DNA of 64,000 nucleotides from Myxococcota bacterium (GTDB lineage Bacteria; Myxococcota_A; UBA796; CAJQPC01), in assembly GCA_036012755.1 (NCBI GenBank), contig DASCPX010000129.1, positions 253,027 to 317,026 on the forward strand, read 5' to 3'. A program made the position numbers. Shown here piece by piece: positions 33,001-48,000 of this stretch; position 1 is the first letter of the stretch, and each line of letters starts with the position of its first letter.

Positions 33001-36000
33001 CTCTCCCGTTGTGCAAGTACGTCGCCCTCAATGGCTTACATATGGATTACCTGGCCGCGCGGCGACGGGCCCACACGAACACGACGGGCCCGATCAACAG
33101 GCCGAGCAGGGCACCCAGCACGGCGTCTCCGAGCAGGCAGGACAAGAAGAGGTCGGGCAGCTCCCAGGAGAACAGCGCGAGCTTCTCGAGGAAGTCCTCT
33201 CCCTGGCTCACGTCGATGGTGCGCCAGGTGCCGAAGCGTAGGAACTCGCCGATCGCGATGCCCGCAGCGACCAGCAGCGGCGCCAACAGCGGGTTGCTGA
33301 TGTTGGCGGCGAGGTAGACCGTGATCTTGTTCAAGCGAGCCAGCCAGGCCACTCCGATGCAGATCGGCAGGTGGAGCCCATAGAGCGGCAGCGTGCCGAT
33401 GAACAGGCCCAGCGCGACGGCCCAGCCGAGCTTCGTGGGCTCCCGATGCTCTTGGAGCAGGTGCTTGAACAGCTTGCGGATCGCCTTGCGCATCGGGGCT
33501 TTCCTATCGCGTCGATGGACCCCCGTGATCGGCGCGATATCCGCATCCATGTTTCGCGTGGTGCTCCTGCTGCATGTCCTCGCCGCTGTCGCTGGCGCCT
33601 GGTTCGTGGGTCCCTGGTTTCCCGTAGCGGTCGTGTCCTCGCTCCTGCTCTTCATCGGCTTCGCTTCGAGCCACCCTGGTTGGGGCCTGTTCGGGCCGGC
33701 CGTGGTTCGGGGCGCCGGGGGCGATCGGGTCTCGCTCACCTTCGATGACGGGCCTCATCCAGACTCGACGCCAGCGCTCCTCCAGGCCCTGCGCGATGCC
33801 GAGATGCGCGCCACCTTCTTCGTCCTCGTCGATCGCTGTGAGCAGTGGCCGGAGCTGTTGAGCGCGATCGCGGCGGAGCACGAGGTCGGCCTGCACGGGC
33901 TCCGGCACCATCCCTGGATCGCGCTCTGGCCACCGGAAAGAGGCGCAGAGGAGCTGCGGGAGGCCAGGCGGCGCCTCGCTGAACTCTGCGGAGAGGAGAT
34001 CGCTCTGTACCGTCCCCCCTTCGGCATCACCTCGCCCAGGATGGTCGAGGCCGTCAAGGCGGTGGGGCTCCGCACGATCTGGTGCTCCATGCGGCCTCTC
34101 GATGGCATCTCCGGGGAGCCCGACCGCCTCCTGCACCTGTGCAAGGAGGCGCGCGGCGGTGACATCGTCCTCTTGCACGAGGGCCCGAACCGGCCCGCGG
34201 CTGGTGTGCTCGCGGATGTCCTCGCCGACTTCCGACAGCGGGGCTTGCGCTCCGTCACCGTGGGGGAGCTGCTCGCATGAAGCTGCTGGTGACCGGAATA
34301 GGCGCCTGGAGCGCCGCTGGTCGCGGAACGGGTGCCCTGGTCGAGCTCCTCGAGTCTCGCCGAGCCGCCTTCTCCGCGGAGCCGCCCTACCCGAGCGAAG
34401 GTCTCTACGCGCCCCGCTGCGGCCTGACCGAGGTCGAGCGCGACCGGCCCGCCGAGACCCTGCTCCTCGGCGCGGTCAGGGAGGCCCTGGCCCACGCCTC
34501 CTTCGGCGAGGGTCGCCTGGGCCTGGTCGTCGGCACTTCCAGCGGCAACATCTGCGGACCCTGGGAGCGCTGGCATCGCGCCCACCTCGCCGGAGAGCCT
34601 GCCAGCGAGGAGGGGACCTGGCGCCAGGACCCCACCAAGGTGGTCGCAGAGGCCATCGGCGCTACCCGCCATGCCACCGTCAGCGTCGCTTGCGCCAGCG
34701 GCACCGCCGGCTTCGTGCTGGCCCAGGGATGGCTCGCGGATGACCTCGTCGATGCCGTCGTCGTGGCCGGGGTCGATGCCCTCTCTCTCTACGTGCACGC
34801 CGGCTTCAACGGGCTTGGTGCACTCTCGAAGAGCCAGCCCCGGCCCTTCCATACCGAGCGGGACGGGCTCCTGCTCGGCGAGGGCGCGGCTGCGGTCCTC
34901 GTCGAGGTCGAGGCTCATGCCTGGGGCCGCGGCGCTACGTCGCTCTGCGAGCTCTGCGGCACGGGTCTGTCCGCGGATGCGGTCCACATGACCGCTCCGG
35001 ATCGCCAGGGAGGCGGTGCCGCTCGGGCGATGCAGGCTGCCCTGGACGACGCAGGGGTGGGAGCCGAGGCCATCGATCTGGTCTCCCTCCATGGCACGGC
35101 CACCTCCTTCAACGACGCGATGGAAGCCCACGCTCTGCAGCGTGTCTTCGGGGATCGCCCGCTGCCGCTCTTCGGCGTGAAGCAGGCCGTCGGCCACACC
35201 CTTGGTGCTGCCGGGTCCCTCGAGGCCACCGTCGTGGTCGAGGTCCTCTGCAGCGGACGGGTCCCACCGGCCCCGGAGATCGACGAGGAGCTGCCTGTGT
35301 CCTCGCAGCGGTTTCCTTCGGCCCCGCGGATTGCGATCTCGACGAACTCTGCCTTTGGGGGGGCCAACGCAGCGGCGGTCCTTGCTGCGCCGGGCGCTGT
35401 CCCCGAGTTGGTTCGCGAGCCCCGAGAGGTCATCGAGCTGGCTTCTGCCAGAGTGGAGATCCCCGAAGGCAAGGTGGACTGGAGTGCCCTCTGGGCAGCG
35501 CCGCCGGAGCGCTTCAAGAGGCTCAATCGCTATGTGCGCGTCGCGCTGGTGGCGATGAACCGTGTGCTGTCGGAGGTCGAGATCGGCCCGGACATCGGGG
35601 TCGTGCTGGCGTCGGAGAGCAACTGCCGGGCGACGGATCTGCGCTACCACCAGAAGCTGCTCCAGCGTGGGGCGGCCCAGGCGCCGAGGGTGGAGTTCAT
35701 CTACACGATCCCTGGGGCGCCGAGTGGAGAGGCAGCGATCCTCTGGGGGCTGCAGGGGCCCTCGATGGTCCTCTGCGGGCCGATGTCGGAGGCCGTGGAG
35801 GAGGCCAAGCGGATGATCCGGTGGGGCAGGGCTTCTCGGCTCGTGGCGCTGGGCATCGAGGCTCCGGAGCCCAGGGGTGCGGCCTGGGCGGAGGCGGTGC
35901 TGCTCGGTCACTGACGCCCCGAGATCTCTCCTTGGGTCACCTTGTCGATGAAGGGCACTGAAGCGTTCGCCAGCAGCACGCCCAGGAGCACGCCATCCGG

Positions 36001-45000: not shown

Positions 45001-48000
45001 GCCGGGCCAGAGCCGCGCGAAGTCGCCGCTCAAGGCCCCCCCGAGCCCCCGACATCGGCCTGGCTCAACAGGGCGATGAGCTTGGGGTCGCCTTGGGCCA
45101 CGGCGTCGTGCACCGCTGCAGCCCGCAGGACGAATCTGCGAGAGGGCTTGGCTTCGTCGGACATGGGGGCCAAGCCTACTCTCGGCGGTGCGAGCGGGTC
45201 ATGGGCGACAATGGGCCCATGCTTGCCTCACCGATCGCCTCCTCTGCCTTGTTCCTGCTGCTGCTCCCTCTGCTCGGAGCTGCCCGCGGCGAACCTGCCG
45301 CCGAGGTCGTCGAGGGGGTTGCGGGGGACGCCAAGGGAGGTGCCATCCTGATCACCGAGGACGGTCGCGTCTTGTACCTGGTGGGCCTGGACTCCTGGCC
45401 ATCCTGGGCGCTGGGCCATCCCGTGACAGCGACCGGGACCGTCTCGGAGCAGGACTACCTGCCCAAGGCCACGCAGGACAAGGACGGCGCCTGGACCCAG
45501 GGCACCACCGGCGGCAAGGACACGGTCCTGCAGAGCACCGGCTGGTACATGCACGCGCCCCCAGCGCCCTGGAGCGTCAGCTACTCGGACGGCTCTGGCA
45601 ACGCCTCGCGTCTCTGGGCCGACGAGGAAGGCGTGGGCTGGAGCTACGACCCGGTGCAGCCCGCCCAGAGCTCGAGCGGGACCTACTCCGGCGGAGAGCC
45701 AGCGGCAGGAAGCCTCGAGCCGGAGCAGGCTGGACAGCTCTGGAGCAGGATGGTGGAGCTGGAGGTCTCTCCGCAGCACCACGCCCCCCAGCGAGCGAAG
45801 GGGACGGGGGCTTTCTCCATCACGACGCCAGACGGCGAGCGCGGCTTCCTGGTGGTCTCGGACGCGGCCTCTGGCTTCGACGTGATGTTGAAGCAGCTCC
45901 GAGGGCTCTGAAGGTCAGCTCGGCCGCACGACGACCCCCACCCCCGAGGAGGCGTGGATGCGAGCCTCGAGGGGCTCTGGCAGTCGCACGTGGCGGACCC
46001 CCTCCGACTCCGCGACCACGGGCAGCGACTCGAGCCAGTCGAGGTCGATGCTGCCGTCGCCGGTGGCGAGGTCGATGGTGAAGTAGGCGACTCGGAGCGA
46101 GGTGATGTTGTGGAAGAAGTGCGTGCCCAGTGATGGGTCCACGCGGAAGCCGGGGGAGGCCAGCTCGACCATCACGCGGGCGGCCGAGATCTGGTGCCAT
46201 GCGACCGGGATGCCGAGGTGGGGATCGGCGGTGCCCCACCGTCCGGGGGCGACGAGCAGGTAGGGCCGACCAGCTGCGGAGAGGCCGGCGTTCATGGAGT
46301 CGATCACGCGGGCCATAGCTCGAGTTCGAGGCACCTCGAAGCGCTGAGGGTGGACATAGATGACGTCCTGGATGTCGCTCACGACGCCGTGGCCCATTGC
46401 GCTCCCCCTCACCAGCGCCAGCTCGCCTTCTCGGATTCCCGCGGGCTCCGCCTCCTCTGGGAAGCGCTCGCGGACGAAGGGCCGGAGCTGGACGACGGCG
46501 AGCTCTGGCACTCCCCGGGCGCCCACCAGGTCCACGGCGAACTCGATCTCCACCGGAGTGCCGAAGCCGGCGGTGCCCATGTCCAACAGATCGCTGAGCA
46601 ACGGAGCGAGCGGAAAGCCGTCGTAGCGCAGGATGCTGGAGAAGTTGACGAGACGGGTCCCGGGGACATGGATCGAGTCCACGACGCGGTCATCTGCGGC
46701 TACGTAGGTAGCGCCCACAGGCGCCAGGGTCCCGTCGGCTTCGGCCACCGACAGCGGGCAGCGCGTCAGGCCCGGCTCTGCAGCGAGGAAGGGGCTGGCC
46801 ATGTCGAGAGCCAGGAACTCGCGCTGTGAGTACCTCAGCGCCGCGGCGGGCGAGGAGAGCTGGATCTCCAGAGCCGGGCGTCGGGGACAGAATCTGTATG
46901 CATTCTCCCCGTCCGCCACGACCTGACCCAGCCCGAGGGCGCTCACGGCGAGCCCGTCGTCGGGGTCCAGGCGCCCGATGGGGTAGAAGTTCCGCGACTG
47001 GGCGACCCCGGCGAAGTCCGGGTAGAAGCGATCTCCGTGACGCCGGCCCACGAGCCGCTGCACGATCACCCCCATCTTCTCCTCCTCCGAGCGCATGCCC
47101 GCTGCGCTCATGGAGCGCTGCGGACCGGTGAAGAAGGTGGAGGCGAAGACGATGCGGATCGCGCGGGACAGCTGCTCCAGTCGTTGTCGGGCGTCTGGGG
47201 CGTTGTTGGGGAGCAGGATCGTGCGATAGAGCCCGGCGAAGGGCTGGAACGGGGAGTCCTCGTAGAGACTGGAGGAGCGGACGGCCAGCGGGTACTGCAC
47301 GTTGGCGAGGAGGGCCTCGAGGTCGTGGGCGAGGCCCGTCCCCAGCGGGTGGCGCAGGAAGAGGGCCGCGATGTCCTCGTCGGAGTCCATCTGGAGCGCC
47401 TGCTCCCGAAGACCGTGGCGGTCGCACCAGGCGTCGAACACATCAGTGCAGATCGCGGTCGCTCGGGGAACGAAGACCCGGACATCCGGGTAGCGCTCGG
47501 CGATACCCGCGCTCGCGAGCTGGGCCGAGGCGAAGGCGATCCCGCGGCCCTTGCCGCCCATGGAGCCGCTGCCGAGGCGGGTGAAGTCCACGCTGAGGTG
47601 ATCCGCACCGCGCACGTAGTCCGCCACCTGGCCGCGCTGGCGGGCCTCCAGGAAGCGGCTGAAGATGTCGTGCAGCCACTGGCGGGCGCCCTCCGGATCG
47701 TCGAACTCGGCGTAGGTGCGGGCCCGGACCTTTCCGGCGAGATCGAAGAGCCCACGCGCCATCAGCCAGTTCGAGAAGTGGTTCCGCTCGGCGTGGTAGC
47801 GAAGCGAGCTCCCCGGGATGCTGTCGAGGATCTCGATCATCGCCCGCAGATCCTTCGCCTTGGTGACCATCTGGCCGTCTTCGCCCCGGAACACGAAGGC
47901 CCCGAAGCCGAGGTGGTCGAGCATGAACTGCCGCAACTCCTTGAGGAGCTCCGGCGAGTTCTTGTCGGCCCAGCCGACCTCCAGCTGCTCTGCGGTGACG

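What a model noticed while it worked through the whole genome (the two positions that open the first line are those of the whole stretch)
35908..45033. Hydrazine-synthase-like alpha/beta-gamma cytochrome complex encoded in one conserved operon with a reduced Rnf (C,G,A,D; [...]
Seven co-oriented genes encode a fused HZS-beta/gamma-like diheme protein (944 aa), an HZS-alpha-like triheme protein (1056 aa), a small multiheme cytochrome, an RnfC-like flavo-FeS protein, an FMN-binding RnfG-like protein, a small membrane protein and an RnfD-like protein. The same order recurs in six phyla, often with apbE inserted. It is an undescribed exported heme enzyme wired to its own cut-down Rnf-type membrane electron conduit, with the anammox gene order (beta-gamma before alpha).
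Evidence so far: g03867 matches HZS beta (5c2v_B, E 6e-13) and weakly gamma; the alpha family profile matches 5c2v_A at E 3e-19 and its model (pLDDT 83) has HZS alpha as top fold hit, E 3e-25. 89 homologs at E<=1e-60. 32 loci from Acidobacteria, Planctomycetota, Verrucomicrobiota, Gammaproteobacteria, Bacteroidota and Myxococcota; of 33 loci compared (these plus one phylum relative), 29 carry the cytochrome, 29 RnfC-like, 26 RnfG-like, 27 the beta-gamma gene and 20 RnfD-like; most misses are contig ends. Flavinylation motif SGAT in g03863. No RnfB gene in the operon.
(Added by a program. Inside this text positions count along the whole contig: contig position 253,027 is position 1 of the stretch shown here. 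"Call 12" and the like, gene names such as g00115 and contig names such as C1 are that model's own, and its searches are not shown. The text may have been shortened before it was handed on; [...] marks where a part breaks off. The agent that wrote the report below was given it as the finding of a first reader that could run no searches.)

Follow-up and report, generated by a model that had tools for sequence, protein, structure and literature searches.

The report
Hydrazine-synthase relative on half-Rnf wire
A seven-gene operon in an oxygen-respiring bacterium encodes a distant, ten-heme relative of the anammox enzyme hydrazine synthase together with half of an Rnf membrane complex that most likely carries electrons from cytoplasmic NADH out to it; it is not hydrazine synthase, and what it reduces is still unknown.

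Summary
The operon is real: seven minus-strand genes joined by 4-nt overlaps, conserved in 30 further loci from six phyla. The two large proteins are true but distant paralogs of hydrazine synthase (HZS) alpha and beta-gamma, with 4 and 3 heme motifs, not 3 and 2; the extras are repeats of the HZS heme-alphaII domain. They are not HZS: Tyr591, Cys303, His144 and the third thioether Cys are missing, and the host has no HAO/HDH. The membrane part is RnfC-RnfD-RnfG plus a cysteine-less RnfA remnant, without RnfB. A sister clade swaps RnfC for a NuoF/HoxU-type diaphorase fused to RnfD, so NAD(H)-RnfD-cytochrome wiring is the conserved theme. Best reading: a one-way NADH-to-periplasm flavin wire feeding an exported multiheme reductase (0.55); substrate open. 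I found the combination in no paper (7 searches); this scan had already noted it in another genome (e1-708034).

The parts
42199..45033 (-). HZS beta-gamma-like fusion, 944 aa: N-terminal membrane helix, 7-bladed beta-propeller carrying an inserted alphaII-type heme domain (Cx4CH 240-246, distal His301) and a long conserved insertion, then an HZS-gamma-like diheme domain (CxxCH 621-625 and 801-805; His922 = HZS gamma His332)
   Evidence: pLDDT 90; 5c2v_B Z 35.6; gamma-domain profile: 5c2v_C E 6e-17, next diheme peroxidase 0.044
39032..42202 (-). HZS alpha-like protein, 1056 aa: two extra N-terminal alphaII-type heme domains (CxxCH 39-43/His124; Cx4CH 179-185/His251), 6-bladed propeller, middle domain with heme alphaI-like CxxCH 912-916 (no Tyr591; conserved Arg889), C-terminal bis-His heme domain (979-983/His1034); probable lipoprotein Cys14 (inferred)
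   Evidence: 5c2v_A E 3.8e-27; pLDDT 91; Z 34.3, 572 aligned, next TolB 25.3
38739..39035 (-). Exported triheme cytochrome c, 98 aa (pentaheme in most relatives)
   Evidence: 3 CxxCH; Cytochrome_C7 weak; relatives' heme counts
37627..38742 (-). RnfC-like flavin/2x[4Fe-4S] NAD(H) subunit, about 371 aa, probable CTG start
   Evidence: TIGR01945 256 bits over cut-off 246; two ferredoxin motifs, FMN motif
37235..37630 (-). Short RnfG-like FMN-binding protein, 131 aa, flavinylation motif SGAT (Thr106)
   Evidence: FMN_bind E 4.7e-9; [ST]GA[ST] in 23 of 26 relatives, two of the three misses cut by contig ends
36828..37238 (-). Small membrane protein, 136 aa, degenerate RnfA homolog without conserved cysteines
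   Evidence: profile-profile vs RnfA/NqrE set E 1e-5 over the C-terminal 53 columns, shuffles at most 15.2 vs 39.8; no Cys column conserved in 19 sequences
35908..36831 (-). RnfD-like membrane flavoprotein, 307 aa, flavinylation site Thr145
   Evidence: TIGR01946 over cut-off; Ser/Thr at the FMN site in 19 of 19 whole clade-1 and 15 of 15 clade-2 sequences

Best explanation
The operon builds a dedicated one-way electron wire and the periplasmic enzyme at its end. NADH is oxidised at the RnfC-like subunit (FMN, two [4Fe-4S]); electrons cross the membrane through RnfD (riboflavin, covalent FMN) to the covalent FMN of the RnfG-like protein on the outer face, pass to the small multiheme cytochrome and then along low-potential bis-His hemes (four repeats of the HZS alphaII domain plus gammaII) to one or two open, His-ligated hemes (gammaI-like and alphaI-like), where a small oxidant is reduced in the periplasm. 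Because RnfB is absent and the RnfA/E remnants have lost the cysteines of the membrane [2Fe-2S] cluster, the second Rnf branch is gone; the remnant is probably a scaffold and the complex probably does not pump ions. Shown: gene content, coupling, homologies, cofactor motifs, loss of RnfB and of the A/E cysteines, loss of HZS catalytic residues. Inferred: complex formation, electron path, outward direction (about 70%: an outward electron is helped by the membrane potential, an inward one needs a donor below about -470 mV), and the substrate. My odds on the substrate: an N-oxide (NO, nitrite, hydroxylamine) 0.3, O2/H2O2 0.25, something else such as a metal chelate or organic acceptor 0.45.
For: Translational coupling of all seven genes. 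Gene set conserved in 30 loci from six phyla, one true break. FMN sites kept in RnfD (34/34 whole sequences) and RnfG (23/26); apbE inside the operon in 20/30, and three apbE genes elsewhere in the host. No RnfB, RnfE, NqrE or NqrF homolog in 55 loci plus the window stretch. The host has its own full Rnf and NQR on other contigs, so this is a third, dedicated module. Natural experiment: the sister clade (support 100) has no RnfC or RnfG but RnfD (15/25 loci) fused or next to a NuoF-like NADH domain (13/25) and a HoxU/NuoG-like Fe-S protein (13/25), beside the same cytochrome (16/25) (7 more metagenome loci): two different NAD(H) modules feed the same RnfD. Extra heme domains are alphaII repeats with their distal His; in HZS the bis-His hemes titrate at about -360 and -310 mV, near NADH (bioRxiv 2023.01.22.525020). 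Published half-Rnf systems are proposed to work as one-way NAD(P)H-to-outside conduits (PMC8238504); roles of RnfA/E, G and D from PMC12174285.
Against: No biochemical or expression data. A further beta-gamma clade (26 loci, 6 of them with 17 kb or more of context) has no alpha, RnfD or apbE nearby, and one clade-2 locus has alpha without an adjacent beta-gamma (L043), so the alpha/beta-gamma pairing and the wire are not obligatory for the fold. Clade 2 lacks RnfG, so the RnfD-to-cytochrome step is not fixed. In canonical forward Rnf the G-D-C branch runs inward to NAD+. Flanking genes are not conserved and name no substrate. The host has no nirK, nirS, nrfA or nosZ (96% complete), which weakens a respiratory N-oxide role. 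The window copy looks trimmed (triheme, no apbE, no second membrane gene, Arg for a Cys that is kept in 23 relatives' RnfC).
Confidence: 0.55

Rival explanations
1. [quoted passage not shown]
For: G-to-D-to-C-to-NAD+ is the forward direction in canonical Rnf (PMC12174285); low-potential bis-His hemes and RnfC or NuoF/HoxU modules are reversible (established knowledge).
Against: Needs a donor below about -470 mV against the membrane potential (inference); all 50 handles tested (49 distinct genomes) have heme-copper oxidase genes, so they could pass such electrons to quinone or oxygen without this wire; no substrate-supplying genes conserved nearby.
Confidence: 0.2
2. The hemes are mainly an electron relay or store for reductive metal (iron) acquisition or envelope redox upkeep, not a small-molecule enzyme.
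For: The host's own more distant paralog lies with imelysin, a di-haem oxidoreductase (DHOR), a thioredoxin-like gene, DUF3570 and apbE; PMC8238504 links DUF3570 and half-Rnf clusters to iron uptake in a minority of cases; five of seven hemes in the pair have a distal His.
Against: No iron-uptake gene among the flanking genes scanned for clades 1 and 2 (111 and 95 proteins, a selection of the 426 unlabelled ORFs); two hemes have no evident sixth ligand and keep conserved polar residues nearby (Glu672, Glu686, Arg889), which suits catalysis.
Confidence: 0.15
3. A cryptic hydrazine synthase: the host performs anammox-type N-N bond formation.
For: Whole-length structural homology to HZS alpha, beta and gamma; His772 and His332 equivalents kept; one paper reads such HzsA-like genes as anammox potential in ten phyla (PMC11828985).
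Against: Tyr591 replaced (Leu919/Thr920; no Tyr in 75 of 75), Cys303 aligned to Arg588, His144 not kept, no Cys available for the third thioether; 41 bits against an 800-bit cut-off for NF052339; no HAO/HDH family gene in the host while two anammox genomes give 13 and 10 matches; oxidase genes in all hosts tested.
Confidence: 0.03

Closest known systems
Anammox hydrazine synthase HzsABC (PDB 5C2V)
   Same: Alpha: 6-bladed propeller, middle heme domain, C-terminal bis-His heme domain (Z 34.3, 572 residues, 20% identity). Beta-gamma: 7-bladed propeller plus diheme domain, fused as in Scalindua. Four core CxxCH motifs and distal His772/His332 kept.
   Different: Three extra alphaII-type heme domains; Tyr591, Cys303, His144 and the third thioether Cys absent; encoded with its own cytochrome and half-Rnf; hosts have oxygen reductases and this host has no HAO/HDH; not the closest non-anammox relatives of HZS.
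Non-anammox HZS homolog clades I-IV (Hagglund et al. 2025, PMC12758564) and hzs-like genes (Suarez et al. 2023, PMC10732223)
   Same: Co-located alpha-like and fused beta-gamma-like genes lacking HZS catalytic residues; function unknown.
   Different: Those clades go with FG-GAP/CRTAC1 or ABC genes, keep the CcP/MauG Trp at His144 and lack His772 (clades I-III); this family has no Trp there, keeps His772 (68/75), and goes with RnfD/ApbE. None of the species named in the sections I read is among my 80 loci; rnf, apbE and FMN do not occur in the supplementary figure text.
Rnf complex (RnfABCDGE)
   Same: RnfC and RnfD over NCBIfam cut-offs, FMN-binding RnfG-like subunit, ApbE flavinylation sites, RnfA-like remnant.
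   Different: No RnfB; A/E remnants short and without the [2Fe-2S] cysteines; so only the C-D-G branch is left, ending at a periplasmic cytochrome.
NQR/RNF-like half complexes (Meheust et al. 2021, PMC8238504; bioRxiv 2024.03.13.584918)
   Same: A single RnfD/NqrB-type transmembrane path proposed to carry NAD(P)H electrons to an extracytosolic flavin.
   Different: Those fuse RnfD to an NqrF-type NAD domain (PF00175) and have lost the RnfD Thr; here RnfD keeps Ser/Thr and is fed by RnfC (clade 1) or a NuoF/HoxU module (clade 2), and the acceptor is a named multiheme enzyme.
Rnf with a multiheme cytochrome (Methanosarcina MmcA-Rnf; Desulfovibrio dhcA-rnf)
   Same: Rnf genes beside an outer-face multiheme cytochrome (MmcA: passage in PMC12174285; Desulfovibrio: search listing only, operon layout recalled).
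   Different: Those keep all six Rnf subunits and have no HZS-like enzyme.

Membership tests
Hydrazine synthase (anammox) | Alpha subunit three-domain fold with hemes alphaI and alphaII | tested here: met
   Foldseek E 1.4e-26, VIA Z 34.3; CxxCH 912-916 and 979-983 align to 583-587 and 685-689
Hydrazine synthase (anammox) | Proximal Tyr591 on heme alphaI | tested here: not met
   aligned to Leu919/Thr920; no Tyr at 917-921 among the common residues of 75 sequences
Hydrazine synthase (anammox) | Zn ligand Cys303 (not universal in anammox) | tested here: not met
   aligned to invariant Arg588
Hydrazine synthase (anammox) | Bis-His heme alphaII (His772) and gammaII (His332) | tested here: met
   His1034 in 68/75; His922 in 100/100
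Hydrazine synthase (anammox) | gamma His144 and third thioether Cys165 | tested here: not met
   His144 aligns to Gln671 (V/L/I/F/Y in relatives); the window protein has no Cys between 624 and 801
Hydrazine synthase (anammox) | Distal Asp168 at heme gammaI | tested here: inconclusive
   region aligns differently in hhalign and MAFFT; conserved Glu672 and Glu686 are candidates
Hydrazine synthase (anammox) | NCBIfam equivalog cut-offs | tested here: not met
   NF052339 40.7 of 800 bits; NF052342 47 of 1250
Hydrazine synthase (anammox) | Host with HAO/HDH (anammox pathway) | tested here: not met
   PF13447: 0 in G000 (96% complete), 13 and 10 in two anammox genomes
Hydrazine synthase (anammox) | Hydrazine formation | not testable with these tools
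   needs purified protein
Rnf complex | RnfC, RnfD and flavinylated RnfG | tested here: met
Rnf complex | RnfB in the operon | tested here: not met
   host's own RnfB finds only a Fer4 stretch in one clade-2 locus among 55 loci plus the window stretch
Rnf complex | RnfA/RnfE pair with four cysteines for the membrane [2Fe-2S] | tested here: not met
   RnfA-like remnant without a conserved Cys; RnfE likeness of the second gene only E 0.037, and that gene is absent here
NQR/RNF-like system (Meheust 2021) | RnfD fused to PF00175 NAD-binding domain | tested here: not met
   window RnfD is stand-alone; clade 2 fusion is to Complex1_51K/SLBB/NADH_4Fe-4S; NqrF finds nothing
Bacterial diheme peroxidase / MauG | Inter-heme Trp and CCP_MauG cut-off | tested here: not met
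   PF03150 17.6 of 25.6 bits; no Trp at the His144-equivalent position (equivalence from PMC12758564)
Hagglund clades I-IV | Placement in those clades | tested here: inconclusive
   residue and neighbourhood features differ from clades I-III; clade IV sequences and Tables S3-S5 were not seen, so overlap cannot be excluded

The most novel reading that the evidence does not exclude
The complex is an NADH-driven periplasmic nitric-oxide-reducing enzyme of oxygen-respiring bacteria: the gamma-like heme reduces NO to hydroxylamine as proposed for HZS, using electrons of low enough potential from its private half-Rnf, and the His/Arg alpha-like heme finishes the chemistry (further reduction to ammonium, or an N-X bond). 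That would be a free-standing version of the first HZS half-reaction outside anammox, a new route in the nitrogen cycle, and would give the orphan heme alphaII of HZS a history as the last link of an electron wire.
Probability: 0.12. Interest if true: 0.92.

Novelty: new variant of a known kind. Interest (0 to 1): 0.66.

Why it matters
HZS-like genes outside anammox bacteria are known, argued over (read as anammox potential in one paper, rejected in another) and have no known partner or reaction. This operon supplies the first built-in electron source for such a protein, twice over with different NAD(H) modules, which turns 'what do HZS paralogs do' into a defined assay: NADH, membrane module, cytochrome, enzyme, candidate acceptor. 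It also shows a form of Rnf cut down to one branch (C-D-G, cysteine-less A), a natural test of which Rnf parts move electrons and which pump ions, and it warns that HZS_alpha domain hits in oxidase-bearing genomes are not anammox markers.

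Tried and rejected
Complex prediction of the beta-propeller (68-592) with the alpha propeller (288-755): 'no answer', score 0.01; no verdict either way, and only part of each chain fitted the size limit. Sequencing runs: no RNA holder listed. 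Promoter/terminator scan: 0 promoter-like, 3 terminator-like sites against 1.9 expected; uninformative. ESM Atlas: alpha gives HZS_alpha-type clusters at 0.89-0.91 with no function; the small membrane protein gives nothing nameable. Idea that this family is the closest non-anammox relative of HZS: rejected. Idea that Met685 replaces Cys165 as a family-wide heme ligand: dropped, because it is not kept in clade 2 and the alignment there is ambiguous; the 'c2' columns for the beta-gamma alignment turned out to be another clade and are not used as clade 2. Idea of an obligate link to denitrification: nosZ in 21 of 50 handles, NnrS in 26 of 52, no background set, not universal. Neighbour scan for a substrate clue: nothing conserved; NnrS beside L002 and L049 and NnrU beside L009 are cherry-picked hints. 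The mixture-model tree did not finish; the tree used is FastTree on 604 columns, 56 rows, one row (L069) a long, unreliable branch. First sample of 56 genomes held no true HZS. Literature searches that found no description of HZS-like genes with Rnf subunits.

Full report
Observation. Seven ORFs lie on the minus strand between 45033 and 35908. Each stop overlaps the next start by four bases (ATGA three times, CTGA once, GTGA twice), so the genes are translationally coupled; RnfC most likely starts at a CTG, which matches relatives' N-termini. Family scans give HZS_alpha (PF18582, E 3e-7) in the 1056-aa protein, propeller repeats and weak diheme hits in the 944-aa protein, RnfC and RnfD above NCBIfam cut-offs, FMN_bind in the 131-aa protein and nothing for the 136-aa protein. 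With the triheme cytochrome the operon encodes ten heme motifs.

Relation to hydrazine synthase. Models of both proteins are confident (pLDDT 91 and 90). The alpha model matches HZS alpha over 572 residues (Z 34.3, next TolB 25.3) and the family profile finds 5c2v_A at E 3.8e-27. The propeller of the second protein is by sequence closer to a generic YVTN protein but by structure closest to HZS beta (Z 35.6 vs 33.5), a thin margin; the gamma part is more telling, its profile finding 5c2v_C at E 6e-17 and the next diheme peroxidase at 0.044. I fetched true HZS genes (17 of 401 genomes over the cut-off; four sets used) and aligned profiles. Core CxxCH motifs, His772 (His1034, 68/75) and His332 (His922, 100/100) are kept; Tyr591, Cys303 and His144 are not, and the window protein has no cysteine that could make the third thioether. 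The place of Asp168 could not be settled. The three extra heme domains are homologous to one another and to the C-terminal alphaII-type domain (E 5e-17 to 5e-7), which matches HZS alphaII at E 4e-22; each has a conserved His in the distal position (124, 251, 301). Two hemes have no evident sixth ligand: gammaI-like, with Glu672 and Glu686 kept across clades 1-3, and alphaI-like, with Arg889 (74/75) where HZS has Thr571; that Thr571 lines the distal pocket is recalled, not seen here.

It is not the nearest kin of HZS. An HZS-alpha profile run over 1.84 billion representatives found non-anammox proteins at up to 325 bits, while this family scores 37 (maximum 61). In a FastTree tree HZS nests among those proteins and this family lies outside, clades 1 and 2 being sisters (support values are SH-like only). 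Gene order is labile: beta-gamma first in clade 1, alpha first in 20 of 25 clade-2 loci, alpha last in two, alpha first in clade 3. The 'anammox order' carries no weight.

The membrane module. RnfC keeps its flavin motif and two ferredoxin motifs; RnfD keeps Ser/Thr at the FMN site in 19 of 19 whole clade-1 and 15 of 15 clade-2 sequences (one frameshift fragment set aside); the RnfG-like protein keeps [ST]GA[ST] in 23 of 26. The 136-aa protein matches the C-terminal part of RnfA/NqrE by profile (E 1e-5; score 39.8 against at most 15.2 for 11 shuffles and 15.0 reversed), and no cysteine column is conserved in 19 sequences; the second small membrane gene of relatives, absent here, resembles RnfE only weakly (E 0.037). 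RnfA/E cysteines hold the membrane [2Fe-2S] that carries the RnfB branch (PMC12174285, passages). The host's own RnfB, RnfE, NqrE and NqrF find no counterpart in 55 loci and the window stretch. The host has separate Rnf and NQR clusters and three apbE genes.

Conservation. The genome scan returned the best 80 of 110 relatives. Thirty form clade 1 with the window (titles name Gammaproteobacteria, Acidobacteria, Planctomycetota, Verrucomicrobiota, Bacteroidota and Myxococcota; titles taken as written): beta-gamma 24/30, apbE 20/30, cytochrome 27-28/30, RnfC 28/30, RnfG-like 26/30, RnfD 18/30 plus one cut; all misses of RnfD but L004 are contig ends. Twenty-five form clade 2: no RnfC or RnfG, but RnfD (15), a NuoF-like domain fused or adjacent (13), a HoxU/NuoG-like Fe-S protein (13), the pentaheme cytochrome (16), ApbE often fused to an FGE-like domain, with 7 more such loci in metagenomes. 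Clade 3 (11 loci, plus a paralog in this host) pairs alpha and beta-gamma with a thioredoxin-like gene and DUF3570. A further beta-gamma clade has no alpha, RnfD or apbE in 26 loci, so the subunit is a portable module. In the host's class the full-length family is patchy, 4 of 151 genomes.

Hosts. All 50 handles tested (49 distinct genomes) carry heme-copper oxidase genes; nosZ is in 21 of 50, NnrS in 26 of 52 handles, two of them duplicates. This host (96% complete) has no HAO/HDH, nirK, nirS, nrfA or nosZ match. These are oxygen respirers, not anammox bacteria.

Mechanism. The simplest reading is a single Rnf branch used as a wire: NADH, RnfC, RnfD, RnfG, cytochrome, bis-His hemes, open hemes. 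Two unrelated NAD(H) modules attached to RnfD in sister clades make NAD(H) the likely cytoplasmic end. HZS bis-His hemes titrate at about -360 and -310 mV and gammaI near 0 mV (bioRxiv 2023.01.22.525020, abstract and passages), which fits an NADH-level donor if the paralog's hemes are similar (inference). Outward flow is favoured because the membrane potential helps it and because a private NADH wire makes most sense for an acceptor too low for the quinone pool (inference). I put this at 0.55, the reverse direction at 0.2, a metal or relay role at 0.15, hydrazine synthesis at 0.03. The substrate is not shown; N-oxides 0.3, O2/H2O2 0.25, other 0.45.

Literature. PMC12758564 (abstract, two Results sections, first part of the Discussion, parts 1 and 5 of 13 of the supplementary figure text and two term searches in it; its tables were not in the text I could read) describes four clades of non-anammox HZS homologs without Rnf or ApbE. 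PMC10732223 (passages) proposes a broad HZS-like enzyme family, with no mention of rnf. PMC11828985 (passages and a supplement search) reads HzsA-like genes as anammox potential; its three RnfD-family rows are all in Supplementary Data 12, two of them labelled NqrB. PMC8238504 (passages) and bioRxiv 2024.03.13.584918 (passages and one section; supplements closed) describe RnfD::NqrF-type half complexes. Seven searches of the open library found no account of HZS-like genes joined to RnfC/G/D or to RnfD::NuoF; subscription papers were not searched. This scan's own note e1-708034 reports the same system in another genome with the same reading; it is not independent evidence.

Verdict. A real, conserved, unpublished combination of two known kinds of part: a new variant, with a clear electron path and an open reaction. 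Interest 0.66.

Noticed in passing
L030-L054 (e.g. L036:9920-22311), L165-L185: Sister clade with alpha first, an FGE-like gene, ApbE fused to an FGE-like domain, a pentaheme cytochrome, RnfD fused to a NuoF-like NADH domain and a HoxU/NuoG-like Fe-S protein; no RnfG. An RnfD::NuoF fusion differs from the published RnfD::NqrF fusion.
   Followed up: yes
L103:2013-9215 (G000:C117) and L056-L066: More distant alpha-like paralog in the same host beside imelysin, DHOR, a thioredoxin-like gene, DUF3570 and apbE; the same alpha/DUF3570/beta-gamma layout recurs in 9 or more loci. A second flavinylation-linked context, possibly iron-related.
   Followed up: partly
L146-L164, L180, L191-L193; P0186-P0211: Alpha-less beta-gamma clade in an operon with a diheme cytochrome, a second propeller/diheme protein, two FGE-like proteins and a RidA/L-PSP-fold protein; includes one cultured isolate (P0203).
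   Followed up: partly
P0214, P0215, P0216, P0221: Non-anammox proteins much closer to HZS alpha (243-325 bits); they lack Tyr591, but P0214 and P0220 appear to keep a His at the His772 spacing. Better candidates for HZS origins than this family; genomic context not fetched.
   Followed up: partly
L009:15292-15963, L013:9676-10287, L019:15015-15632: The second small membrane protein carries, in about 8 relatives, an N-terminal helical domain that resembles the MshEN c-di-GMP-binding motif (recalled; Pfam gave only a weak FumaraseC_C hit).
   Followed up: partly
window 37627-38742: The window's RnfC has Arg where 23 relatives have Cys in the NGCESEP-type motif, and probably a CTG start; with the shorter cytochrome and missing second membrane gene and apbE, this copy looks trimmed.
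   Followed up: partly
L002:2420-4303, L049:7035-8240, L009:20430-21032: NnrS beside two operons from different clades and NnrU beside a third; a weak, selected hint of nitrosative-stress context.
   Followed up: partly
L002-L054 flanks: Histidine kinase (Cache/HAMP sensor in the example scanned) and response-regulator or LuxR genes flank about 15 loci; none lies next to the window copy.
   Followed up: no
L040:80-7511 and L046:47-3076: A second alpha(-beta-gamma-FGE) copy lies a few kb upstream of the clade-2 operon.
   Followed up: no
window 31288-32181 (+) and 27587-30190 (+): A probable lipoprotein multiheme cytochrome with Cx4CH/CxxCH motifs and a TonB-dependent receptor with a TonB_C domain lie 4-8 kb downstream on the other strand.
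   Followed up: partly
window 32203-35914 (+) and about 50900-52700 (+): Acyl carrier protein, polysaccharide deacetylase and ketosynthase genes (type II fatty-acid/polyene-like cluster) abut the operon's 3' end with a 7-base overlap; another ketosynthase lies further upstream.
   Followed up: no
window 45915-50196 (-): Response-regulator/PPDK_N fusion next to glutamate dehydrogenase, upstream of the operon; 45093-45911 (+) has no Pfam or NCBIfam match.
   Followed up: partly
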